Positions 1,525 to 27,240 of a stretch of DNA of 64,000 nucleotides are shown in pieces. Under the pieces are notes generated by a model. It was not told where the DNA came from. It saw nothing but the letters and a program-made list of their open reading frames with translations, and ran no database searches. Numbering within the stretch: position 1 is the stretch's first letter; every line of letters starts with the position of its first letter. The DNA comes from a virus. The translations under genes were made by a program, and so were the position numbers. The DNA is taken from the UHGV virus genome UHGV-0076294. The stretch is one strand, 5' to 3'.

Positions 1525-2017
1525 CTTTAAACTCAAAGAGTTAGTACCACAATCGTACATCGCCAAATACGGTGATTCTGCAATTCGGTTTATGAACCCG
1601 TTGTTAATGATCTCCCTACAACAGATTCGTAACCGTTTCGGCAGAATGGTGATTAACTCGTCTGCTGCGCAACAGCGTGGCCTAAGAACCTTAGACTTTT
1701 TCATCAACCAAGAAAAGCCTAAGGGCGGTAACTATAAACAACGTGCGTTACAACTCTACTCTGATTCAGGGAGTCAACACAAGTTCGGTAACGCAATTGA
1801 CGCGACACTGTTAGACTCAACGGTAAAACAAGTCCACGACTATATCGCCGCTAATCCTGACGAATTTCCATTCATTCACTTTATCGAATGCGACATCAGT
1901 TGGTTGCATATCGACGTTCGTAACCAACCGAATATCACGTTCTGGTCACCGAATCGCGGTACTGTGAAAGTCGTGAAACAAAGCCCTATCGATTGGAGCG
2001 CCTTAGTTAAAATCTAA
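1502..2017 (+). CDS. Peptidase M15-like cell-wall metallopeptidase
   Basis: SQHKFGNAIDA (HxxGxAxD) and later WLHIDVR histidine as in M15/VanY-like peptidases. GGGAGGGAAG RBS. Overlaps upstream gene by 23 nt. Confidence 0.6.
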   Translation: MFHPNPSNFKLKELVPQSYIAKYGDSAIRFMNPLLMISLQQIRNRFGRMVINSSAAQQRGLRTLDFFINQEKPKGGNYKQRALQLYSDSGSQHKFGNAIDATLLDSTVKQVHDYIAANPDEFPFIHFIECDISWLHIDVRNQPNITFWSPNRGTVKVVKQSPIDWSALVKI

Positions 2018-2683: not shown

Positions 2684-2700
2684 ATCTATATTTTACGAAA
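2684..2700 (+). promoter_or_regulatory. Candidate phage promoter motif (ATCTATATTTTACGAAA)
   Basis: Related to the AGATAT(AT)TTAC element found upstream of other + strand gene blocks. Lies in an AT-rich divergent intergenic region. Confidence 0.25.
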
Positions 2701-2757
2701 TGTCTAAAATAACATTCTTATGCAATCCACCCCTACCACTTACGAGGTAAAAAAAAG

Positions 2758-4616: not shown

Positions 4617-5164
4617 TCATCATCTCCTTTAACTAAACCCAGTTCAATTAACAATTCAAAATCGATTTGGCGAAATTTGTTATCAAAACCAGAATCCCAA
4701 TCGATATGTAACCCTTGTCGTTCTTCATCGGTAAGTTCAGGATAAATTAAACCAAGGAACGCTTCACGTTCTTCGTAAAATCCATCGATAGTAGAATCTG
4801 GATTTCGTGTTGCATAGATCGTAATGCCCGGAAAGGATAATCCTAATGCTGTTATAGATTCGACGCTCGGTTCTTGCAAGGCCCTGCGTAAAAGCACGAT
4901 TTTATGTCGTGGAAATTCTAGTACACGTTGTTCAAATCCAGGATTCCGTTTCTCAATTTCTGTAACTGAAAGATCGGTGAGTTCTGTGCAATACATTGGG
5001 ATAACTACGGTTACTCCGTGACGAATTAATAGTCGTTTAACATCGTCAGTGAAGTCTTCACCGTTAATTTGCACATAACAACCAAACAGTTTTGTGCTCT
5101 CTAAAAACTTTTCCAAAAAACGGAATTTACGCTTCGTAATATTGTGGATCAGAATTGGTTTCAT
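4592..5164 (-). CDS. Hypothetical protein
   Basis: 190-aa ORF overlapping both neighbours (translational coupling). No recognisable motif. Confidence 0.6.
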   Translation of the reverse strand: MKPILIHNITKRKFRFLEKFLESTKLFGCYVQINGEDFTDDVKRLLIRHGVTVVIPMYCTELTDLSVTEIEKRNPGFEQRVLEFPRHKIVLLRRALQEPSVESITALGLSFPGITIYATRNPDSTIDGFYEEREAFLGLIYPELTDEERQGLHIDWDSGFDNKFRQIDFELLIELGLVKGDDECLLLTKA

Positions 5165-6449
5165 CTTTGGCTTCTCTCAATTGTTTTTCTTTCTGGGCAC
5201 GTTCACGTACGCAACGAGGGCAATAACACATGCTATTATCGTGAAAATCTTTCACTGACGTCGTGCCCATTTTCTGTTTCCAATATTCCGCAACCATCAA
5301 TTTTGCAGTTGTCCAGCCGCATTGACGGCGTTCGGCGTGATAAGCTTTGCGATCTTCTAGCGTCCCTTCTCCATTCTCGTAAGATGCAGCCGCACAACTA
5401 CCACAAGCGTGCTTCATTGGACAACCTAAACAGGTTTCAGGATAGTTGGTATATTGCGTCTGAATCTCTTCCAGCAATTTCCCGTCATCTAAGCTAACGA
5501 ATTCCCGGCCAACTAATTCAAATACGGCAGAACGTGATGTTACGGTTGACATGAAACGGTTACAACCGAAGATCTTACGATCGAATCCTAAGCAGGTCAT
5601 GTGTGTTAACGTACCGCAGAACGGACGTAAACGTTCTGGATTCAAACGTACAGTATCGTTATACAATAATTGGTCGCGCCAGTTTGGTTCCCAGATAGTA
5701 TCAAAATCTAACCCGTCTGGAATGATGTGCGACAAGGTGTTACGTGGGTTGGTGTGTAAGCCCTTCTCAACCCAATAATCAACCACATCCATCATCTGCA
5801 ATGCGATTGAAGTAGCCATGCTCCGTGGCATAATGTCTTCGAAGGTTACGTTGCCGGAAATAGTTCCACCGCCAGTAATATCAATTAATGATTTCATTCC
5901 AGCAGCATAGAACGGTAACGTTTCCAACGTAAAGGTCGCTTTTACACCAAGTTCTGCAATACCGACTTCTTTTAAGTAATTATAGCCCCGCACAGCGGCC
6001 TCGTAAGATCCTTCACGAGTTGTTGTAAAAATCCGGTACTTATCGTGCGATTCGGGCAATCCATCAATAGACACCCCAATAGAAAGCCTGTCTTTCCAAC
6101 GTTCAATAATTTCTCTATTCAAAGGTCTATCTAACAATGTTCCGTTAGTAGAAATGCTAAACATAAACGGCCGATTATGTTTTTCGCATAACTCTTCTGC
6201 GGTTTCAAATGCCGCCATTAATAACTTAGGCTGCATAAACGGCTCGCCGCCGATAATGTCGATAACGACCTCGATGTTTGTCAGGTCTTTATCCCTTTCG
6301 AAACAGGCATGTAAAAAATCAACGATATCTGCCGCTTTGTTATTCCGAGGATACTTACGTTCGTAACAATACTCACAGTCTAGGTTACACGATAAATTTG
6401 TAACGATCTGATAAGTCAGTTGTTTAGGATAACTATTTTCTTGACTCAT
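5127..6449 (-). CDS. Radical SAM enzyme with SPASM-like C-terminal auxiliary-cluster domain
   Basis: CNLDCEYC (CX3CX2C) at about residue 21, GGEPFM, C-terminal CLGCPMKHACGSC (CX2CX5CX2C) plus further Cys. 440 aa, similar in size to AnSME/SCIFF maturases. GAGGGG RBS. Confidence 0.85.
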   Translation of the reverse strand: MSQENSYPKQLTYQIVTNLSCNLDCEYCYERKYPRNNKAADIVDFLHACFERDKDLTNIEVVIDIIGGEPFMQPKLLMAAFETAEELCEKHNRPFMFSISTNGTLLDRPLNREIIERWKDRLSIGVSIDGLPESHDKYRIFTTTREGSYEAAVRGYNYLKEVGIAELGVKATFTLETLPFYAAGMKSLIDITGGGTISGNVTFEDIMPRSMATSIALQMMDVVDYWVEKGLHTNPRNTLSHIIPDGLDFDTIWEPNWRDQLLYNDTVRLNPERLRPFCGTLTHMTCLGFDRKIFGCNRFMSTVTSRSAVFELVGREFVSLDDGKLLEEIQTQYTNYPETCLGCPMKHACGSCAAASYENGEGTLEDRKAYHAERRQCGWTTAKLMVAEYWKQKMGTTSVKDFHDNSMCYCPRCVRERAQKEKQLREAKDETNSDPQYYEA

Positions 6450-7356
6450 TTTCCGCCCCTCTATTACGTTCTGCCATCACTACACGACGAATGTACTCGT
6501 AAGCTTCTACACCTATTGAGGAGGCTAGTTGGTTACACCCTGCTTTCGTAGCTATTGGTACATTTTTAAGTTGGTTTTCTTCCCCGTCCGCGTCTATCCT
6601 GAGACTTTCGCTACAGGCGTTACAAGCATGATCGAAGAATCTGTTTACAATAAAGCCGCAGTCTCTAGAATTTAGAACATTCAGTCTTTCTATATTCTCC
6701 TGAATTCTAAAATACCCGTAAATAAAGTTCATAACGTGATCGGGAGATAACGGTTTTGGCATGTTTTTGTCTAGTAATAAGGACATAGAACGAAAACCGT
6801 AATGGTAGATAGCAGTATATAATTGAATGATATCTTCATGCCATCTTTTATTGGATAAATTCTCCCTCGTAACAACAGCCCAAGTGTTAACATTATTCAA
6901 GCTGTAAATTACTTCTAACGCCTCATGGCAATTATCATCAATAAAGCGCTTAAAAGGCCGTTCAGAAAGATTAAACCCATCGATGCTAACATATATAGCA
7001 TCGAATTGTTTTAACAACGGTAGATGCGATTTACGCATTTTTAAACCGTTCGTGAACATTTGGTGTTTGAGTTCAGGACGGATCGTTTTTAATTCGTCAA
7101 CAAACGCCTCAATCTTTCGAGTTGCCAGTAGCGGTTCACCGCCAGTCCACTGAATTTCAGTAATGGTTGGGTTAGACGACAACGCTTTCAAAATTCGTTC
7201 ACGTTGAAACTCTCGCGGAGAATCTTCACGATGCATGTAATAGGCTCCGCCGCAGAAGCTACAGTCCAGATTACATTTGGATGTAGCAACTACGGACAAT
7301 ACGGTGGGTTTATTGTATAAACGATTCGATAACCTTGGCTCTACGTCGGTTGTCAT
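6433..7356 (-). CDS. Radical SAM enzyme (small paralog 2)
   Basis: SKCNLDCSFCGGAYY, GGEPLL, C-terminal CNACS...GC cysteines. Start set to ATG 7356 by length alignment with paralog 9406..10320 (ORF track gives 7371). Confidence 0.85.
   Translation of the reverse strand: MTTDVEPRLSNRLYNKPTVLSVVATSKCNLDCSFCGGAYYMHREDSPREFQRERILKALSSNPTITEIQWTGGEPLLATRKIEAFVDELKTIRPELKHQMFTNGLKMRKSHLPLLKQFDAIYVSIDGFNLSERPFKRFIDDNCHEALEVIYSLNNVNTWAVVTRENLSNKRWHEDIIQLYTAIYHYGFRSMSLLLDKNMPKPLSPDHVMNFIYGYFRIQENIERLNVLNSRDCGFIVNRFFDHACNACSESLRIDADGEENQLKNVPIATKAGCNQLASSIGVEAYEYIRRVVMAERNRGAENESRK
6679..6773. repeat. 95-nt block 100% identical to 9643..9737
   Basis: Checked base by base. Lies inside the rSAM paralogs at constant offset 2964. 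Confidence 0.95.
7010..7047. repeat. 38-nt block identical to 9974..10011
   Basis: tttaacaacggtagatgcgatttacgcatttttaaacc in both copies, offset 2964. Confidence 0.95.
7231..7281. repeat. 51-nt block identical to 10195..10245
   Basis: atgcatgtaataggctccgccgcagaagctacagtccagattacatttgga in both copies (encodes the CX3CX2C region), offset 2964. Confidence 0.95.
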
Positions 7357-7377
7357 TGCAGGTGACTCCATCTATTT

Positions 7378-8265
7378 TTAAATATAGCCAATGGATAACA
7401 AAGGATCGTCGTAAGCGTTAACTCCGGGTTTTAATACAAATGGTGAATTGTAAGCCTCGATAATGCGATTAAGGTCCTTATAACGCACGTTTAAACGTTC
7501 TAAATCCGCCAACGTTACGTTACGTTCCAATACCGCCGACACTGCTGCTTTTTCTTCATCAGTTAACGTGACTTTCGTCATTAAGAAACTAACAAGTTTT
7601 GCTAAATCTGCTTCCGATGACGGGTGTTCACCAATACGTGTTTGAATTAAATGTTGCATCCACGGCTTACGAATACGTTTTGTGATTTCATGTTCATCTG
7701 TAAGGGCAACCCACACAGAGCGTTCGCGATCCCACACAAATTTATAACTGTACGCCATCAGATCGGCTAAGCAGTTGATGCCAAGCTCCTCGTAACCTTC
7801 TATTTCAATGTACGGTTCGGTATCAACATAGTTTTTTGTTTCTACAGGAACCAGTGCATAAAAGTACGGGAATGAACCGAGATAGTCTGGAGACCACCAA
7901 CGACGTGCTACAGGCTTCGCATTCAACTCTTTAAATGGCGTAAAGAACAATTCCAAATCTACAGAATTATTCAGAATACCGTCACTAAAGAAATATTTAC
8001 CGTCAACCAATTTACCGCGTAAATCTGAATCACCGGTAAACACCACTACGCTTTCTGCTGACAGATCGCGTATTTTAAAAGTGTTTTCTACTGAATAGTT
8101 ATTGCGATCGGTAAAAAAACGACCGCGCACTTTGGGCCATTCGCCAGGTAACTGAGTTAACAAACGAACTTTATCTTCCAAATGAGCGCGTATTGAATCG
8201 GGGGAAGAAATATGAAGTGGGTGGTTGAAAATTGTTTTATAGGCTAAATGCAAATCGTTTTTCAT
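7378..8265 (-). CDS. Hypothetical protein
   Basis: 295-aa ORF between the Cys-rich genes and rSAM 2. TGGAG RBS. No recognisable motif. Confidence 0.7.
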   Translation of the reverse strand: MKNDLHLAYKTIFNHPLHISSPDSIRAHLEDKVRLLTQLPGEWPKVRGRFFTDRNNYSVENTFKIRDLSAESVVVFTGDSDLRGKLVDGKYFFSDGILNNSVDLELFFTPFKELNAKPVARRWWSPDYLGSFPYFYALVPVETKNYVDTEPYIEIEGYEELGINCLADLMAYSYKFVWDRERSVWVALTDEHEITKRIRKPWMQHLIQTRIGEHPSSEADLAKLVSFLMTKVTLTDEEKAAVSAVLERNVTLADLERLNVRYKDLNRIIEAYNSPFVLKPGVNAYDDPLLSIGYI

Positions 8266-8277
8266 TGATTACTCCAA

Positions 8278-8568
8278 TTATTTTACGGTCAATCTGACGT
8301 TCAAGGTATAGAACCCGCCACGCCATTGCCTGCCGGTAACTTCAAATTCCGCAGTAAAGCCGTTTGATTTACTCGGTTGCTGCGTAATCGCCATGGTTCC
8401 GCCGGAATTACTTAATACTTCTAACGAGATAGAAACAGAAGATGCATTACCGATAGAGTCTATCTTAAAACTAGCCGCGTCTGTAAAATTGACACTGATA
8501 CCGTTACCCATCGCAACTTGTGGATAGGCGTAAGACTTGCCAGACAGTAACGATTTAAAGATCCTCAT
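8278..8568 (-). CDS. Beta-rich domain ORF, probably the -1 frame continuation of 8739..8945
   Basis: No SD before ATG 8568. Its frame is open upstream to 8757, across the G10 run. Confidence 0.6.
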   Translation of the reverse strand: MRIFKSLLSGKSYAYPQVAMGNGISVNFTDAASFKIDSIGNASSVSISLEVLSNSGGTMAITQQPSKSNGFTAEFEVTGRQWRGGFYTLNVRLTVK

Positions 8569-8945
8569 CGGTTTTTCTTTACCGGTTAATGTTGCGCATT
8601 GAATAAAGACGGTCCCAGTAGAGAAATTGATACGGACAACATCTTTAGCGTGTAGCTTAGACTCAACATAAACAACGGCTTTGTTATCGTAGGCGGGTCT
8701 TGATGGGGTTGGTGTGGAACCGCCGCCGGAGGGCTTACTTACCCCCCCCCCGCTCCCTTACTACAGCTACCGCTGCACGACCAACTACAACCACCGTTAC
8801 AATTATAATGACTTAAAGGTAACCCAGCTAGATTGTTGGTTGAAGAAACCGTCCCTTGGTTTGCAATATAGTTGTTTGCATTAGCGGTGGTGATATATCC
8901 CTCCGCTGTTACTAACCTGTCGCGTATGTTTTTAAGACTTATCAT
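8278..8945 (-). CDS. Candidate fusion product (fibre-like N-terminus, mini CX3C segment, G/P/T linker, beta-rich domain) via -1 frameshift
   Basis: Hand translation: frames differ by exactly -1 and overlap only across GCG GGG GGG GGG TAA. No stop in the linking segment. Confidence 0.5.
8739..8945 (-). CDS. Cys-rich fibre-like protein 3 (short form, 4 Cys)
   Basis: MISLKNIRDRL... N-terminus and NCNGGCSWSCSGSCS junction homologous to the two longer Cys-rich proteins. Confidence 0.7.
   Translation of the reverse strand: MISLKNIRDRLVTAEGYITTANANNYIANQGTVSSTNNLAGLPLSHYNCNGGCSWSCSGSCSKGAGGG
8742..8751 (-). repeat. G10 homopolymer (C10 on + strand), a slippery or phase-variable tract
   Basis: Ten consecutive C at 8742..8751, directly abutting the TAA of the 68-aa ORF. 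Confidence 0.95.
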
Positions 8946-8948
8946 TTC

Positions 8949-9347
8949 TTATCTTCCAGTACACGATTGCTGACATCCGCCTCGACATGAACCCGAACAT
9001 GTTCCGGTGCAACTACTTGAACAACCACCCGAGCAGTTACCTGTGCACCCTCCTGAGCAGGTACTGCTACAACCTGTACAACCTGTACTACATCCTGAAA
9101 CACAGTTCGCTGAACAGGAAGAACCGCAGCCACCGGAGGCGTTGCCGGTGCAGCCGCCCGAACAACTTGAGCATGTCCAGCTACAGCTACCTCCGCAGTC
9201 ATAGTGAGTTCTCGGCTGTCCTCCAAACAGATCGCTATTATTAGTGGCTTTACCACGAATATAGTTCTGCACCGCACCAGTGTTTTTTAATGCAGTAGAG
9301 TCTATGTTATCCAGCCGGGCCTTTAAAGAAGATAAACCAATCGCCAT
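8949..9347 (-). CDS. CX3C-repeat Cys/Gly/Ser/Thr-rich protein 2
   Basis: 132 aa with 20 Cys in the last ~82 residues, mostly CX3C. Conserved N-region and DCGGSCSWTCS junction. Confidence 0.85.
   Translation of the reverse strand: MAIGLSSLKARLDNIDSTALKNTGAVQNYIRGKATNNSDLFGGQPRTHYDCGGSCSWTCSSCSGGCTGNASGGCGSSCSANCVSGCSTGCTGCSSTCSGGCTGNCSGGCSSSCTGTCSGSCRGGCQQSCTGR
9167..9200. repeat. 34-nt block identical to 10555..10588
   Basis: ttgagcatgtccagctacagctacctccgcagtc encodes DCGGSCSWTCS on the minus strand in both Cys-rich genes. Confidence 0.95.
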
Positions 9348-9405
9348 TTTAATACCTACTGGTTTAGTGCCCCCTAGGACACATTATAATTCATTTTCTG
9401 TAAAA

Positions 9406-10320
9406 TTATCGTAGTTTTTCTGAGACTCTATTCTTAGCCCCTACCACACGACGTATATAGTCGTAAGCATCTAATCCAACCTTTCTGGCCAAGTCACTAC
9501 AACCATGCTGCGTTACGATTTCAACGTTCTTTACTTGGTTCTGGGCACCGTCAGACTCAATGCGAAAACAACGACTACACGTATTACAGGGTTCATCAAA
9601 TAACGCATTTAGCGTAAACGCACATTCACTTCGATTGGACGAATTCAGTCTTTCTATATTCTCCTGAATTCTAAAATACCCGTAAATAAAGTTCATAACG
9701 TGATCGGGAGATAACGGTTTTGGCATGTTTTTGTCTAAAACCAGCGACATCTCACAAAAACCATAATGGTAAATGTGGTTATGTAACGCAATTATATCTT
9801 CGTACCAACGTTTATCCCCAATACGCTCGCGTGTCAAGACCGCCCAAGTACGAATATTTTTCAATTCGTAAATTGTCTCCAAAACCTCGTATTGTTTTTC
9901 TTCGATAATCCTCATGAACGGACGCTCTGATTCTTTGAATCCATCCATGCTAAAAAAGATACTATCAAAACCCTTTAACAACGGTAGATGCGATTTACGC
10001 ATTTTTAAACCATTGGTATACAGGTAATGTTCGCAACGAGGATACTTCTCCCTTATCTCTTCTATAAGGGTATCAATTTTACGCGAGGCAAGTAATGGTT
10101 CGCCCCCTGACCATTGGATATTTGTGATAGTCGGGTTATTTTCCAGCGCCTCGATAATACTTTCCTTTTGTACTTCTGTGGTTGTATCCTCTCTATGCAT
10201 GTAATAGGCTCCGCCGCAGAAGCTACAGTCCAGATTACATTTGGACGTTGTAATCACGTTTAACGTTCTCGGATTACTGTAGAGCTTATCGGATACCGTC
10301 GGTCTAGTAAGTTCTTCCAT
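9406..10320 (-). CDS. Radical SAM enzyme (small paralog 1)
   Basis: SKCNLDCSFCGGAYY, GGEPLL, C-terminal CNTCSRC...GC. Paralog of 6433..7356. Confidence 0.85.
   Translation of the reverse strand: MEELTRPTVSDKLYSNPRTLNVITTSKCNLDCSFCGGAYYMHREDTTTEVQKESIIEALENNPTITNIQWSGGEPLLASRKIDTLIEEIREKYPRCEHYLYTNGLKMRKSHLPLLKGFDSIFFSMDGFKESERPFMRIIEEKQYEVLETIYELKNIRTWAVLTRERIGDKRWYEDIIALHNHIYHYGFCEMSLVLDKNMPKPLSPDHVMNFIYGYFRIQENIERLNSSNRSECAFTLNALFDEPCNTCSRCFRIESDGAQNQVKNVEIVTQHGCSDLARKVGLDAYDYIRRVVGAKNRVSEKLR
9643..9737. repeat. 95-nt block identical to 6679..6773
   Basis: See 6679..6773. Confidence 0.95.
9974..10011. repeat. 38-nt block identical to 7010..7047
   Basis: See 7010..7047. Confidence 0.95.
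10195..10245. repeat. 51-nt block identical to 7231..7281
   Basis: See 7231..7281. Confidence 0.95.
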
Positions 10321-10339
10321 TCGAACTGATCCTTATTTT

Positions 10340-10732
10340 TTATGGGTTAGAACAACCACCTGCACAAGAACCACTACACCCCGAGGAACAACGTCCAGCA
10401 CATCCCCCAGTACAAGTCCCACTACATCCTGAACAACCACCCGAACATGTTCCGGTGCAACCACTGCATTGATTACCACACGCAGAGGAACAGCTTCCTA
10501 CGCACACCGATGTACATGTACCTGAACAACTCGTACAACCATGCGTACAACCGTTTGAGCATGTCCAGCTACAGCTACCTCCGCAGTCTAATCGACCGGG
10601 TGTCCAACCTGAAAATGAATCAGCAGCATTATGTGCTTTCGACGCAACTTGCGGATCAACACGTGGCCCAGTTGCTATTCGGTTCTCTACGTTGGTGATT
10701 CGGTCACGTACGTTTTTAACACTGATCGCCAT
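10340..10732 (-). CDS. CX3C-repeat Cys/Gly/Ser/Thr-rich protein 1
   Basis: 21 Cys in the last ~82 residues. MAISVKNVRDRI N-terminus. Start set to ATG 10732 (AAGGA 6 nt upstream) rather than GTG 10735. Confidence 0.85.
   Translation of the reverse strand: MAISVKNVRDRITNVENRIATGPRVDPQVASKAHNAADSFSGWTPGRLDCGGSCSWTCSNGCTHGCTSCSGTCTSVCVGSCSSACGNQCSGCTGTCSGGCSGCSGTCTGGCAGRCSSGCSGSCAGGCSNP
10555..10588. repeat. 34-nt block identical to 9167..9200
   Basis: See 9167..9200. Confidence 0.95.
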
Positions 10733-10743
10733 CACATATCCTT

Positions 10744-10789
10744 AAAATAAAAAAGAATGGAGGACTACGTCCATAAACATAGTTCCTCC
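10744..10789 (-). terminator. Candidate terminator/attenuator between fibre gene 4 and the Cys-rich/rSAM cluster
   Basis: Minus strand: 9-bp stem with one bulge (GGAGGAACTA.../...TAGTCCTCC) followed by TTCTTTTTTATTTT. Confidence 0.5.
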
Positions 10790-10799
10790 TGTAATTAAA

Positions 10800-11999
10800 T
10801 TATTTCGTACCCGCTTCTGCTTGTACGTCATCACGAGACGTCAGGTTAGCGTTAACGTGCACTGGGGCCTGAACCACGCCACCGTATCTCTTGTGGAGAT
10901 AACCTGTATGTGGGTTATCTGCCGCAATGTGGTTTTGTAGGTTTTGGTTCGCCTGACTGATTGCGTTCGTGTTATTATTAACCTGCTGTTTAAGCGCATC
11001 CAGGTTTTGTTGTAACTGATCGATTTTCTGATCGGTTTCTTGGCCATGTTGCTCTAACGCTTCAACACGCTGAATAACCTGATTCAGTTTTGTATTTAAA
11101 TCGTTGACACTCTTTTGCAGTTGTAACACTAACGAGTTCAGGTTCGCTAACGCTAAAGCCATTTTCTGGTAGTTTTGAGCAACCACGTTAAGTTGGTCGT
11201 TCCACGCTTCCAGAGAGCTGACAACAGCGTCAATACGCTTACCTAAAGCTTCATCTGCTTTCTTCAGTGCATTGATTTCCGTAATCGTTGCGTCGATAGC
11301 AGACTGGACGTCACGAATAAGCGCACGGATTTCAGTTTCTGTTAGTCCATTAACCTGATGGATATCAAGTTGGTGGACGTTACCGGTTGCATTGATGTGC
11401 GCATTTAAAGCGTCCAAGAAGTCGTTTTTCAGACTTTCCAGAATCGCTTTAATGTTCTCTAACTGTACCGCATCGCCAGAACTGATCGCGTCCTTAATGC
11501 CCGCCAATACAGCGATGATATATTCAAAGCCATAAATGTCACCTACGTCTTTATACGTCGGCGCTGACGGGAATGTATCTGGTACGTTACGTAAGTCTTT
11601 AAATGCAACTGTACGGTTATCGAGGTTTAGCTCAGCAATCGCTTGTTCGATAGCCACGATGTTTGCAGACTGTGGGCCACCAACTACCTGCGCAGATACC
11701 GTAATGTCTGTCGGAATCGCTGTGTTAGTGACCACAACCGCCATGACAATCTCGCGGTTTTTAGTCAGCTTTTCATAAGCCGGGTGTGCAAAAATCAACT
11801 CATAATCGGTACCACGTTCGTAGGTTGCATCCGGTCGGTTAGCAACGCGCAAACGAAACGTGTCCGCAAAGAACGGGCCGTCAGGAAAAGCAAAAGCACG
11901 GTTTACTTTACCTGTACCTAACGTAACCTGACGCTCCACAGCGTTAGACGTTAGCGAGCCTGTTAAATCTAAAGGATATTGGTAAACAATGGAGGCCAT
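10800..11999 (-). CDS. Tail fibre protein (short, coiled-coil shaft)
   Basis: N-terminal FPDGPFF...GTDYEL module shared with the three giant fibre genes. Long heptad-like Q/N/L-rich segment. Start set to ATG 11999 (AAGGAGAG RBS). Confidence 0.8.
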   Translation of the reverse strand: MASIVYQYPLDLTGSLTSNAVERQVTLGTGKVNRAFAFPDGPFFADTFRLRVANRPDATYERGTDYELIFAHPAYEKLTKNREIVMAVVVTNTAIPTDITVSAQVVGGPQSANIVAIEQAIAELNLDNRTVAFKDLRNVPDTFPSAPTYKDVGDIYGFEYIIAVLAGIKDAISSGDAVQLENIKAILESLKNDFLDALNAHINATGNVHQLDIHQVNGLTETEIRALIRDVQSAIDATITEINALKKADEALGKRIDAVVSSLEAWNDQLNVVAQNYQKMALALANLNSLVLQLQKSVNDLNTKLNQVIQRVEALEQHGQETDQKIDQLQQNLDALKQQVNNNTNAISQANQNLQNHIAADNPHTGYLHKRYGGVVQAPVHVNANLTSRDDVQAEAGTK

Positions 12000-12039
12000 G
12001 GCCACTCTCCTTTATTCGAGACGTCCTTGTCCCGAGTCA

Positions 12040-25930: not shown

Positions 25931-27193
25931 GTGACTACTGCTTATCAAGTACGGCCTGACAGCGCTTTTGGCTTCTCTCGAGAGACCCGTACCTGGGGAG
26001 CCATCGACGTCACGCAACCCTTAGAAACCTTGTGTTCTGATTACCATATTTTCGAAGTCGGTCTGAGTGCGCTTGGTAAAGACTATACGTTAATTAGCCA
26101 ATATCACCTCGCTGACTTACAAAACCGTACCGATACGTTACAAGACTGGCTGAATGAAAAAGCCGGTGTGGTTATCTCTGCGTTGAAAGACGGTTTACCG
26201 ACGTTAGAGTTTGATTGGGCACACTACCAATCGATTAATGCTGATGTTCCAGTAGAAACCTACCTGTGTCCTCACGGTTATCACTACAGTCAAGATTTCA
26301 GTATAGACGATGCTGACGACGTTGTGATTGTTTGCGAAGATAAATGGAGAGACAAATACCGTAACGGGGTGTTGTACAACATCAACGGACAATGGGTACC
26401 ACATCAGTCGGATACTGTTGGTGTACGTTTACCGGGTGCGGGTAAGATAGTACGTCGTGCAGGGACACCGGATATCGGGTGCATGGTCTTTAGTAAATTG
26501 GGGAATGTTAAAACGTACCCCATTGCTAATTTGACCTTAAACAAACTCGACACCACCCGTGACTATTATTCCACGTTAATGATTTCTTTACCGGAATCTA
26601 TTACGGGTAAAACCGTGGGGTTTGTTATCGGGGGTCTGATACACTGGTTACCGGTTACTGGGTACTTCTCCGACAAAGCCATTATGGTCTCGTTACCGAA
26701 CTTTGACGTTGCGCGTACTGTGCTAGAAACCCGACGTTATTACGACTGGGATAGCATCGGCGTTGGCGATCTGTCATCCCCGACCAGCGTACAGCGTATC
26801 CGCAACCCAGAAACGTTAAAGGCGCTTTTAACCCACGAGTCGTCGTTTATCTTTACGGTGGATAATCCGTATCTGGAAGAAGAAGTTGTGGGGGTTTCTC
26901 ACAACGCTATCTGGGGACGTTTATACCTTAAAGATCCTAATGATCCTGATGGGGAAAAACAACTGGGCTATCTGTTAAACCGCTTCGGTAAAACCGTTGC
27001 TTATTGGCCGACGTGGGAAGAAGGGGAATGGGTATTTAACACCACGGAATTCGACAGTCAAAACTACGTGTTCCGTGAAGCCCGCTGGTATAACCAGAAG
27101 AAAATTAACGATGCACAGGCAATCGTAGGGCCTTTCGGTCCCTGGGAAAAAGTCTATTTGGAAATGCATCGTTTCCGTGCAAGAAAAAAATAA
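25931..27193 (+). CDS. Hypothetical protein (divergent from the fibre operon)
   Basis: Start set to GTG 25931 (GAGGAAAAG RBS). The track start 25715 would overlap the fibre gene 5' end. Confidence 0.6.
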   Translation: MTTAYQVRPDSAFGFSRETRTWGAIDVTQPLETLCSDYHIFEVGLSALGKDYTLISQYHLADLQNRTDTLQDWLNEKAGVVISALKDGLPTLEFDWAHYQSINADVPVETYLCPHGYHYSQDFSIDDADDVVIVCEDKWRDKYRNGVLYNINGQWVPHQSDTVGVRLPGAGKIVRRAGTPDIGCMVFSKLGNVKTYPIANLTLNKLDTTRDYYSTLMISLPESITGKTVGFVIGGLIHWLPVTGYFSDKAIMVSLPNFDVARTVLETRRYYDWDSIGVGDLSSPTSVQRIRNPETLKALLTHESSFIFTVDNPYLEEEVVGVSHNAIWGRLYLKDPNDPDGEKQLGYLLNRFGKTVAYWPTWEEGEWVFNTTEFDSQNYVFREARWYNQKKINDAQAIVGPFGPWEKVYLEMHRFRARKK

Positions 27194-27198
27194 GTAAC

Positions 27199-27240
27199 CT
27201 CCTACCCTCTAAGAGGGTAGGAGTAGCACGTTTTTTTTTT
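27199..27240. terminator. Bidirectional terminator
   Basis: CTCCTACCCTCT/AGAGGGTAGGAG stem. T10 downstream on + strand and a T-run on the minus strand. Confidence 0.7.

What the first reader, a model, noticed from the sequence alone, without database searches (positions are those of the whole stretch)
8278..8945. G10 homopolymer joins the third Cys-rich ORF to a beta-rich domain by a -1 frameshift
Seen: the 68-aa ORF stops at TAA 8739-8741 immediately after ten G (minus strand; C10 at 8742..8751 on +). The next ORF (ATG 8568) has no Shine-Dalgarno. Its frame stays open upstream to 8757, right across the G-run. The two frames differ by exactly -1.

Slipping back one nt on GCG GGG GGG GGG TAA, or having an 11th G, gives this product: ...CSGSCSKGAGGG-VSKPSGGGSTPTPSRPAYDNKAVVYVESKLHAKDVVRINFSTGTVFIQCATLTGKEKPMRIFKSLL...RLTVK. 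The site is of the X XXY YYZ type and abuts a stop codon. The product is about 220 aa, made of a fibre-like N-terminus, a mini CX3C segment, a Gly/Pro/Thr linker and a beta-rich domain.

Inference, four options:
- Programmed ribosomal or transcriptional slippage giving short and long isoforms, as in tail-chaperone G/GT-type genes.
- Heritable phase variation of a receptor-binding module.
- Recent pseudogenisation.
- A homopolymer sequencing error.
Basis: seen in the sequence. Interest (0 to 1): 0.75.

Follow-up and report, generated by a model that had tools for sequence, protein, structure and literature searches.

The report
Poly-G switch fusing two phage ORFs
A run of ten G in a giant Salmonella/E. 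coli phage splits one gene in two, and because the run changes length between otherwise identical phage genomes it works as an on/off switch that adds an exchangeable C-terminal domain to a small conserved cysteine-rich protein.

Summary
On the minus strand the 68-aa ORF (8945..8739) ends GCG GGG GGG GGG TAA. G10 lies at 8751..8742. The -1 frame is open from 8757 to 8278.

Relatives show that the two ORFs are one gene. In-frame 221-226-aa fusions exist in public assemblies with exactly the predicted junction (..KGAGGGVSKPS..). One sister lineage has the fusion fixed in frame, with the run broken by Gly-preserving changes.

Codons upstream of ATG 8568 are under purifying selection (dN/dS 0.07-0.23), and that ATG is Ile in some relatives, so it is not the start.

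The run is 9, 10, 11 or 12 G in different assemblies. Genomes with no substitution over 3-3.9 kb differ only by G9 versus G10. Where the run is interrupted out of frame, the module carries deletions and stops.

A second, unrelated-looking module sits at the same junction in other genomes. TAAGTAAG after the run stops both non-fusion frames at once.

Best reading: a hypermutable poly-G contingency tract, and the window carries an OFF (-1) allele. RNA-level or ribosomal slippage may add some fusion product but is untested. A G/GT-type programmed frameshift, a sequencing error and a dead pseudogene are not supported.

The parts
8739..8945 (-). Short form: a 68-aa Cys-rich protein (MISLKNIRDRLV...CNGGCSWSCSGSCSKGAGGG*). 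It is the N-terminal part of the long form.
   Evidence: for the ORF. It matches phrog_6085. It is conserved as a stand-alone 68-69-aa gene in SPN3US-like phages that lack the module.
8742..8751 (-). G10 homopolymer (C10 on the + strand), which acts as the switch.
   Evidence: The run is 9, 10, 11 or 12 G in relatives. G9 versus G10 is the only difference between genomes identical over 1.9-3.9 kb.
8734..8741 (-). TAAGTAAG. It gives a stop in both non-fusion frames (G10: GGG TAA; G9: GGT AAG TAA) and reads Val-Ser-Lys in the fusion frame.
   Evidence: Read directly. The second module type has TAAGTGAG with the same property.
8689..8742 (-). Gly/Ser/Pro/Thr linker (VSKPSGGGSTPTPSRPAY), -1 frame, codons 1-18 of the module.
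   Evidence: Constraint is relaxed here (dN/dS 0.05-0.97), as expected of a linker.
8278..8688 (-). Predicted all-beta C-terminal module A (136 codons plus stop), -1 frame. It has no start codon of its own before ATG 8568.
   Evidence: dN/dS is 0.07-0.23 for codons 19-58 and 0.06-0.18 for codons 59-154. Homologues are 58-91% identical. No Pfam or PHROG family matches. The AF2 model is all-beta but low confidence.
8566..8568 (-). ATG that an ORF finder takes as the start of a 96-aa ORF. It is an internal Met, not a start.
   Evidence: It is Ile in L008, L011, L013 and L015. The upstream codons are under purifying selection. There is no Shine-Dalgarno motif.
7378..8265 (-). Conserved 295-aa neighbour (phrog_8030). 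It served as a frame-neutral anchor for sampling relatives.
8949..10735 (-). Context: two longer Cys-rich paralogues (132 aa at 8949..9347; 131 aa at 10340..10735) flanking a radical SAM gene (9406..10320).

Best explanation
Proposal: the 68-aa ORF and the downstream open frame are one gene, interrupted by a hypermutable poly-G tract placed exactly at a domain boundary.

Shown:
- The tract gains and loses G between otherwise identical genomes. The presumed cause, slippage during replication of the phage DNA, is inferred.
- With 11 G after GC, or 10 G after GCA/GCT, the gene encodes a 222-aa protein. Its parts are the conserved Cys-rich N-terminal part, a Gly3 junction, a Ser/Pro/Thr linker and a roughly 135-aa beta-rich module.
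- With 9, 10 or 12 G, translation stops 0 to 2 codons after the run, because TAAGTAAG carries a stop in both other frames. The product is then the 68-70-aa short protein that module-less relatives encode as a normal gene.
- The window carries the G10 allele, which is OFF and lies -1 from the module.

Inferred:
- The switch lets a phage population keep two virion types, with and without an exchangeable tail-associated adhesin or host-recognition module.
- Low-level slippage by RNA polymerase or the ribosome on the same run may also give a little long form from OFF genomes.
For: 1. In-frame alleles exist.
- 221-222-aa proteins have the junction ..CSKGAGGGVSKPS.. (P0017, P0018, P0038, P0039, P0041).
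- Their DNA reads GCT+G10 (L016) and GC+G11 (L017).
- For the second module, 224-226-aa fusions occur on 222-227-kb contigs.
- L238 has the fusion fixed in frame with the run broken by Gly-preserving changes, GGC GGA GGG GGA GGG.

2. The run length varies faster than point substitutions accumulate. L019 and L022 (G10) versus L020, L021 and L025 (G9) show 0 substitutions over 1.9-3.9 kb; the one G is the only difference. The run lengths read from DNA are 9, 10, 11 and 12; short products of 68-72 aa with 3-6 terminal Gly point to still longer G-rich tracts whose DNA was not read.

3. The module is translated from upstream of ATG 8568. dN/dS is 0.07-0.23 for codons 19-58, and the ATG is not conserved.

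4. Loss of the run out of frame goes with decay. In the P0019 lineage the run is GGGGGGCGG, GGGGGGAAGG or GGGTGGACGG, and the module has large deletions and in-frame stops.

5. A different module (VSENRPIRTTR...KIGLY) joins at the same run, open from the run to its end. Module-less relatives have no run.

6. Stops in both non-fusion frames directly follow the run in both module types.

7. The run is a strong outlier in the window.

8. Precedent: hypermutable polyG tracts in Campylobacter phages (Sorensen et al. 2021, Cell Rep 35:109214, as cited in PMC10877375).
Against: - Only consensus assemblies were available, so mixed run lengths within one phage population were not observed. Some G9/G10 calls could be assembler noise at low coverage. 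Against this, two of the scaffold names give about 20x coverage for G9 (L021) and about 22x for G10 (L018).
- For module A, in-frame consensus alleles are rare: about 5 of roughly 145 listed contigs, all on short contigs. This does not fit a freely drifting neutral switch. It could mean the OFF genotypes express the module by another route.
- The L028 lineage has a broken run out of frame, yet an intact module B with its own ATG.
- The function and virion location of both parts are unknown. The structure models are poor.
Confidence: 0.7

Rival explanations
1. Programmed non-heritable recoding is the main route. RNA polymerase stuttering on the G run, or ribosomal slippage (-1 on G GGG GGG before TAA in G10 genomes), makes a fixed small fraction of long form from every OFF genome. 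This would be like lambda G/GT or Thermus dnaX. The DNA length differences would then be secondary.
For: - Module A is under purifying selection although about 97% of listed contigs are out of frame at the DNA level.
- Immediate stops in both other frames resemble the T. thermophilus dnaX slippage arrangement described in PMC5009743.
- Polymerase slippage can both add and remove bases, so it could serve G9 and G10 genomes alike.
- Phage C-terminal extensions are known to be made by either +1 or -1 frameshifting (PMC5009743).
Against: - The required shift is -1 in some genomes and +1 in near-identical ones. That rules out one conserved direction-specific ribosomal site.
- No stimulatory RNA structure is present (z = -0.33 and -0.53).
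- No data bear on slippage over G runs by the polymerases concerned.
- Stable in-frame alleles exist.
Confidence: 0.3
2. These are two independent genes. The beta module is translated on its own, from an ATG/GTG overlapping the end of the Cys-rich ORF in +1-state genomes or from an internal Met, and fusion is irrelevant.
For: - Gene callers report 164-174-aa ORFs starting inside the Cys-rich ORF (P0001-P0003, P0066).
- The L028 lineage has an ATG at the head of module B.
Against: - The overlapping starts differ between lineages (ATG versus GTG one codon later). They are by-products of Asn-Gly codons that also occur in module-less SPN3US-like phage EC001. None has a Shine-Dalgarno motif.
- In the G10 state the window has TAG TAA just upstream of the run and no start codon for 63 conserved codons.
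- The sequence right after the run is a typical interdomain linker.
- In-frame fusions are fixed in L238.
Confidence: 0.1
3. The window's copy is a recently inactivated pseudogene, and the module is on its way to being lost.
For: A sister lineage shows exactly this outcome. SPN3US-like phages do without the module.
Against: - The window's module is full length with no internal stops.
- It is identical in 9 loci and under purifying selection between lineages.
- The run is uninterrupted, so the frame can be restored by a single-base change that is observed to happen.
Confidence: 0.07
4. G10 is a homopolymer sequencing or assembly error, and the real genome has 11 G.
For: Homopolymers are error-prone. 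One Logan contig (L026) breaks exactly at the run.
Against: - G10 with the window's module recurs in 13 further loci read here from different samples (12 with module A, one with module B), and the same 68-aa product is indexed in 45 blocks of the collection.
- Two of the scaffold names give about 8x and 22x coverage for G10.
- No G11 was seen among about 14 contigs carrying the window's exact 295-aa neighbour.
Confidence: 0.03

Closest known systems
Hypermutable polyG tracts in Campylobacter Fletchervirus phages (Sorensen et al. 2021, Cell Rep 35:109214, known here only as cited in PMC10877375; that paper was not read here, so what is said below about its content rests on my own recollection of it)
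   Same: A long poly-G run lies inside a phage gene for a virion or host-recognition component. Its length varies and switches the reading frame on and off, creating phenotypic diversity in the phage population.
   Different: - Here the tract sits exactly at a domain boundary, so OFF still yields a complete, conserved short protein instead of a truncated one.
- Both OFF frames stop at once.
- The host group is Enterobacteriaceae and the phage is an SPN3US-like jumbo phage.
- The switched part is an exchangeable cassette (module A, module B or none).
C-terminal (often Ig-like) extensions of phage structural proteins made by +1 or -1 ribosomal frameshifting (T3 gp10, Listeria phages A118, A500 and PSA; reviewed in PMC5009743)
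   Same: Short and long forms share an N-terminus. The long form carries an accessory beta-rich C-terminal domain encoded in another frame. Relatives differ in the direction of the shift, or have the domain in frame.
   Different: - Those sites are fixed slippery sequences of constant length. Here the site is a G9-G12 homopolymer whose DNA length itself varies.
- An Ig-like fold is not established for this module.
- Ribosomal shifting is untested.
Thermus thermophilus dnaX transcriptional slippage (PMC5009743)
   Same: A homopolymer is followed by stop codons in both alternative frames, so any non-multiple-of-three slippage gives a defined short product.
   Different: - In dnaX the long product is in frame in the DNA, and the run is A9.
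- Here the long product is out of frame in most genomes, and the run is G.
- mRNA heterogeneity is untested.
Lambda G/GT tail assembly chaperone -1 frameshift
   Same: Two products share an N-terminus, with a low-abundance long form.
   Different: - There is no conserved heptamer phase and no stimulatory structure.
- The gene is not next to a tape-measure gene.
- There is no sequence similarity.

Membership tests
Homopolymer contingency locus (phase variation by slipped-strand mispairing) | Uninterrupted homopolymer of about 8 or more bases within the coding region | tested here: met
   G10 lies at 8751..8742. It is the only G/C run longer than 6 in 64 kb, against 0.03 expected.
Homopolymer contingency locus (phase variation by slipped-strand mispairing) | Tract length differs between otherwise (near-)identical genomes | tested here: met
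   G9 versus G10 with 0 substitutions over 1.9-3.9 kb. G9 to G12 occur overall.
Homopolymer contingency locus (phase variation by slipped-strand mispairing) | Length changes move the downstream coding sequence in and out of frame, and ON alleles exist | tested here: met
   All three phases were seen. In-frame products of 221-226 aa were found.
Homopolymer contingency locus (phase variation by slipped-strand mispairing) | Mixed tract lengths within one population, with a measurable switching rate | not testable with these tools
   This needs raw reads. The only hint is that contig L026 begins at the run.
Homopolymer contingency locus (phase variation by slipped-strand mispairing) | ON and OFF differ in phenotype (adsorption or host range) | not testable with these tools
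   This requires an experiment.
Programmed -1 ribosomal frameshift of the G/GT type | Slippery heptamer in a conserved phase, with the same shift direction in relatives | tested here: not met
   G10 genomes need -1. G9, G12 and GCA+G11 genomes need +1.
Programmed -1 ribosomal frameshift of the G/GT type | Downstream stimulatory hairpin or pseudoknot | tested here: not met
   Fold z-scores are -0.33 and -0.53, no better than shuffled sequence.
Programmed -1 ribosomal frameshift of the G/GT type | Chaperone gene pair directly upstream of the tape-measure gene | tested here: not met
   The neighbours are Cys-rich paralogues, radical SAM genes and a 295-aa ORF.
Transcriptional slippage site (dnaX or IS type) | Homopolymer of 9 or more bases, with stops in the alternative frames defining the short product | tested here: met
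   G10 is followed by TAAGTAAG, with stops at 8741..8739 and 8737..8735. Module B has the same logic.
Transcriptional slippage site (dnaX or IS type) | mRNA run-length heterogeneity exceeding that of the DNA | not testable with these tools
   This needs paired cDNA and DNA amplicon sequencing.
Ig-like accessory domain on a phage structural protein | Ig-like beta-sandwich fold of the C-terminal module | tested here: inconclusive
   - Only weak phmmer hits were found (E = 3e-5 to 9e-4) to repeat proteins. One of them carries N_BRCA1_IG/CARDB domains.
- AF2 pLDDT was 48 and 35, with all-beta secondary structure.
- Foldseek returned nothing below E = 0.1.
phrog_6085 (small Cys-rich proteins of SPN3US-like phages) | Profile match of the N-terminal part | tested here: met
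   E = 5e-25 over residues 1-77 of the fusion P0017. The two paralogues score E = 1e-39 to 1e-40.

The most novel reading that the evidence does not exclude
The tract may be a three-level dial rather than a plain on/off switch.
- G11 would give mostly long form.
- G10 would give a little long form, by -1 ribosomal or +1G transcriptional slippage next to the stop codon.
- G9 would give almost none.

Under this reading, selection keeps most genomes out of frame because the short form is needed in excess. In addition, the Cys-rich N-terminal part would be a substrate of the adjacent radical SAM enzymes. The phage would then display an exchangeable, phase-variable binding module on a RiPP-like, enzymatically cross-linked scaffold in its tail apparatus.
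Probability: 0.15. Interest if true: 0.85.

Novelty: new variant of a known kind. Interest (0 to 1): 0.62.

Why it matters
- Phage-encoded contingency loci are documented mainly for Campylobacter phages. Finding one in a widespread enterobacterial jumbo phage suggests that stochastic switching of virion accessory or host-recognition modules is more general. This phage appears as 222-230-kb contigs in many Salmonella, E. coli and Shigella isolate assemblies and in metagenome assemblies.
- The layout is informative for annotation. Gene callers report five or more different artefactual ORFs here (68-72, 77, 96, 129 and 164-174 aa), depending only on run length, and they miss the real 222-aa product.
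- Natural locked-ON, locked-OFF-and-decaying, and switchable alleles already exist. They offer a ready-made comparison for testing what the module does.

Tried and rejected
- tblastn of module A and module B against 50,697 phage records gave no match.
- megablast of the locus against complete E. coli genomes and PLSDB plasmids gave no match.
- An exact-pattern scan of IMG/VR for G7+TAAGTAAGCC gave 0 hits.
- Pattern G8+TAAGTRAG in JGI metagenomes and GTDB genomes was too unspecific. Only L054 among about 196 loci was the phage.
- RNA folding around and downstream of the run was no better than shuffled sequence.
- AlphaFold2 on the module (4-sequence alignment) and on the full fusion (single sequence) gave pLDDT 48 and 35. 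A Foldseek search of PDB found nothing meaningful.
- hhalign of module A against module B gave probability 7% and E = 0.005. A shared QxPSxxNG motif is the only hint of common ancestry, so this is inconclusive.
- Pfam found no family for either module, the 68-aa protein or the 295-aa neighbour.
- Literature searches found no paper on the SPN3US Cys-rich and radical SAM genes.
- An early idea was that in-frame alleles are universally depleted. It was dropped after module B showed many in-frame contigs and a fixed in-frame lineage.
- A Ty1-like +1 site (GGG AGG G) in lineage L028 was considered, but it rests on resemblance only.

Full report
**1. The observation**

- On the minus strand a 68-aa ORF starts at ATG 8945 and ends ...TGT AGT AAG GGA GCG GGG GGG GGG TAA. 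The ten G occupy 8751..8742 and the stop is at 8741..8739.
- The -1 frame reads GTA AGT AAG CCC TCC... from 8742. It stays open from 8757, where it is preceded by TAG TAA, to the stop at 8280..8278.
- Its first ATG/GTG/TTG is ATG 8568, which has no Shine-Dalgarno motif upstream.
- The run is the only G or C homopolymer longer than 6 in the 64-kb window. About 0.03 runs of 10 or more are expected from base composition.

**2. Where the window comes from**

- At the DNA level only the 295-aa ORF next door (7378..8265) matches deposited phages. The match is about 72% identity to SPN3US-like jumbo phages (Seoulvirus). A 20-kb stretch elsewhere in the window behaves the same way.
- Gene order is syntenic with Escherichia phage EC001: a 1727-aa protein, a 401-aa virion structural protein, two Cys-rich proteins of about 130 aa, a 68-aa Cys-rich protein, the 295-aa protein, then radical SAM genes.
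- SPN3US gp168 is a tail protein resembling phiKZ gp131, which lies at the baseplate periphery (PMC5105663). The 1727-aa ORF is its syntenic counterpart of equal length.
- In EC001 the 68-aa gene ends ..CSRGAGNR* and is followed 22 nt later by the 295-aa gene. There is no G run and no extra module.
- The stand-alone 68-69-aa form is conserved in Erwinia phages as well. It belongs to phrog_6085, of unknown function.

**3. The downstream frame is coding, and it starts at the run**

- Homologues of the 154-aa translation are 58-91% identical. They occur in more than 200 contigs from Salmonella, E. coli and Shigella isolate assemblies and from metagenome scaffolds of 222-230 kb.
- Nei-Gojobori dN/dS between lineages is 0.07-0.23 for codons 19-58, which lie upstream of ATG 8568. 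It is 0.06-0.18 for codons 59-154. The first 18 codons, a Gly/Ser/Pro/Thr linker, are more relaxed.
- ATG 8568 is Ile in several relatives.
- Translation therefore enters from upstream. In the G10 state no start codon is available between the run and codon 59.

**4. In-frame alleles exist**

- The protein clusters contain 221-222-aa members.
- Their DNA has GCT+G10 (L016) or GC+G11 (L017).

**5. The run length is unstable**

- Among loci retrieved through the frame-neutral 295-aa neighbour, G10 was found in L018, L019, L022, L024 and the window. G9 was found in L020, L021, L023 and L025. Contig L026 begins inside the run.
- L019 and L022 (G10) differ from L020, L021 and L025 (G9) by no substitution over 1.9-3.9 kb. 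The single G is the only difference.
- Both states occur at about 20x assembly coverage, judging from the scaffold names.
- Other lineages have GCA+G11 (L002, L003), G9 (L004, L005) and G12 (L054). Short products with 3 to 6 terminal Gly show further lengths.
- Depending on run length, gene callers emit ORFs of 68-72, 77, 96, 129 and 164-174 aa. The 164-174-aa ones begin MGVVAGRAAAVVVKE.., which is simply the +1 frame of the CX3C segment. Their start codon is not conserved and also occurs in the module-less EC001.

**6. The sequence around the run looks organised**

- TAAGTAAG follows the run. In the G10 state the short ORF stops at the first TAA. In the G9 or G12 state it reads GGT AAG and stops at the second TAA. 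In frame the same sequence reads Val-Ser-Lys.
- A second, different module of about 155 aa (VSENRPIRTTR...KIGLY) is attached at the same run in other genomes (L010). It is open from the run to its end. It is preceded by TAAGTGAG, which again stops both other frames; L054 confirms use of the TGA.
- For this module, in-frame 224-226-aa fusions are common on full-length contigs.

**7. Natural locked alleles**

- Lineage L238 comprises 10 contigs, 8 of them longer than 200 kb. It has the fusion in frame with the run broken by Gly-preserving changes (GGC GGA GGG GGA GGG GTA). This is a stable ON gene.
- In lineage P0019 (..GAGGR*) the run is interrupted out of frame (GGGGGGCGG, GGGGGGAAGG, GGGTGGACGG, GGGGGTCGG). 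There the module shows different large deletions and internal stops. These alleles may descend from one interruption event, so this is a consistent anecdote and not a statistic.
- Lineage L028 (G6AG3, +1) keeps an intact module B with an ATG at its head. An in-frame sibling allele with G9 also exists (P0077). This lineage is either recently locked or expressed separately.

**8. Mechanism**

- The data directly show a heritable, fast-changing tract that toggles a domain fusion. This is the anatomy of a contingency locus. The closest precedent is the polyG tracts of Campylobacter phages (Sorensen et al. 2021, cited in PMC10877375).
- A G/GT-type programmed -1 ribosomal frameshift is not supported, for three reasons.
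  - Near-identical genomes need opposite shift directions.
  - No downstream RNA structure exceeds shuffled controls.
  - The genomic context is different.
- Slippage by RNA polymerase, which can add or remove bases, or -1 P-site slippage next to the stop codon, remains possible and untested.
- Two observations hint at such slippage. About 97% of listed module A contigs are out of frame, yet the module is under purifying selection. The double-stop layout also parallels Thermus dnaX (PMC5009743).
- The contig counts are partial listings of non-independent genomes. I therefore treat them as suggestive only.

**9. What the module is**

- No Pfam or PHROG family matches.
- An exhaustive phmmer search of 1.8 billion cluster representatives found only weak hits (E = 3e-5 to 9e-4) to repeat proteins. 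One of these carries Ig-like N_BRCA1_IG/CARDB repeats.
- The AF2 models are all-beta but unreliable, and the fold search was uninformative.
- Three things make an accessory binding or host-recognition domain the most likely role: the tail-gene neighbourhood, the linker, and the cassette-like exchange (module A, module B or none). This is inference.
- Phage C-terminal Ig-like extensions reached by +1 or -1 frameshifts, or placed in frame in relatives, are a documented pattern (PMC5009743).

**10. Verdict**

- The window holds the OFF (-1) allele of a poly-G-controlled fusion gene.
- This is a new variant of a known kind of system. It is of moderate to high interest and is directly testable with reads, cDNA, mass spectrometry and locked mutants.

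Noticed in passing
window 5127..10735 (minus strand): Three radical SAM genes (5127..6449, 6433..7371, 9406..10320) are interleaved with three paralogous Cys-rich proteins. These share a conserved N-terminus of about 48 aa followed by CX3C repeats (phrog_6085). The layout resembles a RiPP precursor and maturase arrangement in a tail-gene region. Compared with SPN3US-like EC001, the window has an extra radical SAM gene between the two long paralogues. No literature was found.
   Followed up: partly
L002-L041, L238 (relatives of window 7378..12005): This phage group appears as 222-230-kb contigs in many Salmonella, E. coli and Shigella isolate assemblies at NCBI and in many metagenome assemblies. 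It has no close match in the phage collection (INPHARED, August 2025), in complete E. coli genomes or in PLSDB. It may be a common carrier-state or co-cultured jumbo phage that has not been described.
   Followed up: partly
L028..L030, about 2690..2735: In a common module B lineage the run is interrupted (GGGGGGAGGG). The short ORF then reads on to 92 aa, and the module in the +1 frame has its own ATG. The sequence GGG AGG G resembles a Ty1-type +1 shift site with a rare Arg codon. This is pure resemblance and was not tested.
   Followed up: no
L034 vs L037, about 1715..1725: In the decayed module remnant a second short homopolymer differs between relatives (C5 versus C4). This moves the remnant into a different frame.
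   Followed up: no
window 27190..27240 (+ strand): T10 at 27231..27240 lies 7 nt after an 11-bp hairpin (CTCCTACCCTC TAA GAGGGTAGGAG), downstream of the ORF ending at 27193. It looks like an ordinary intrinsic terminator and is the only other run of 10 in the window.
   Followed up: partly
protein clusters of P0002, P0063 and P0065: The 68-72-aa short proteins are filed inside 90% clusters whose representative is an overlapping-frame or module ORF, linked through the fusion proteins. A search with the 68-aa sequence therefore does not return them, which is a pitfall for anyone re-searching this family.
   Followed up: yes
window 8942..9277 and 10333..10479 (minus strand), and + strand ORFs across 8987..9244: Long alternative-frame ORFs across the CX3C repeat regions (for example 111 aa at 8942..9277) are by-products of the repetitive GC-rich codons. 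They are not separate genes.
   Followed up: no
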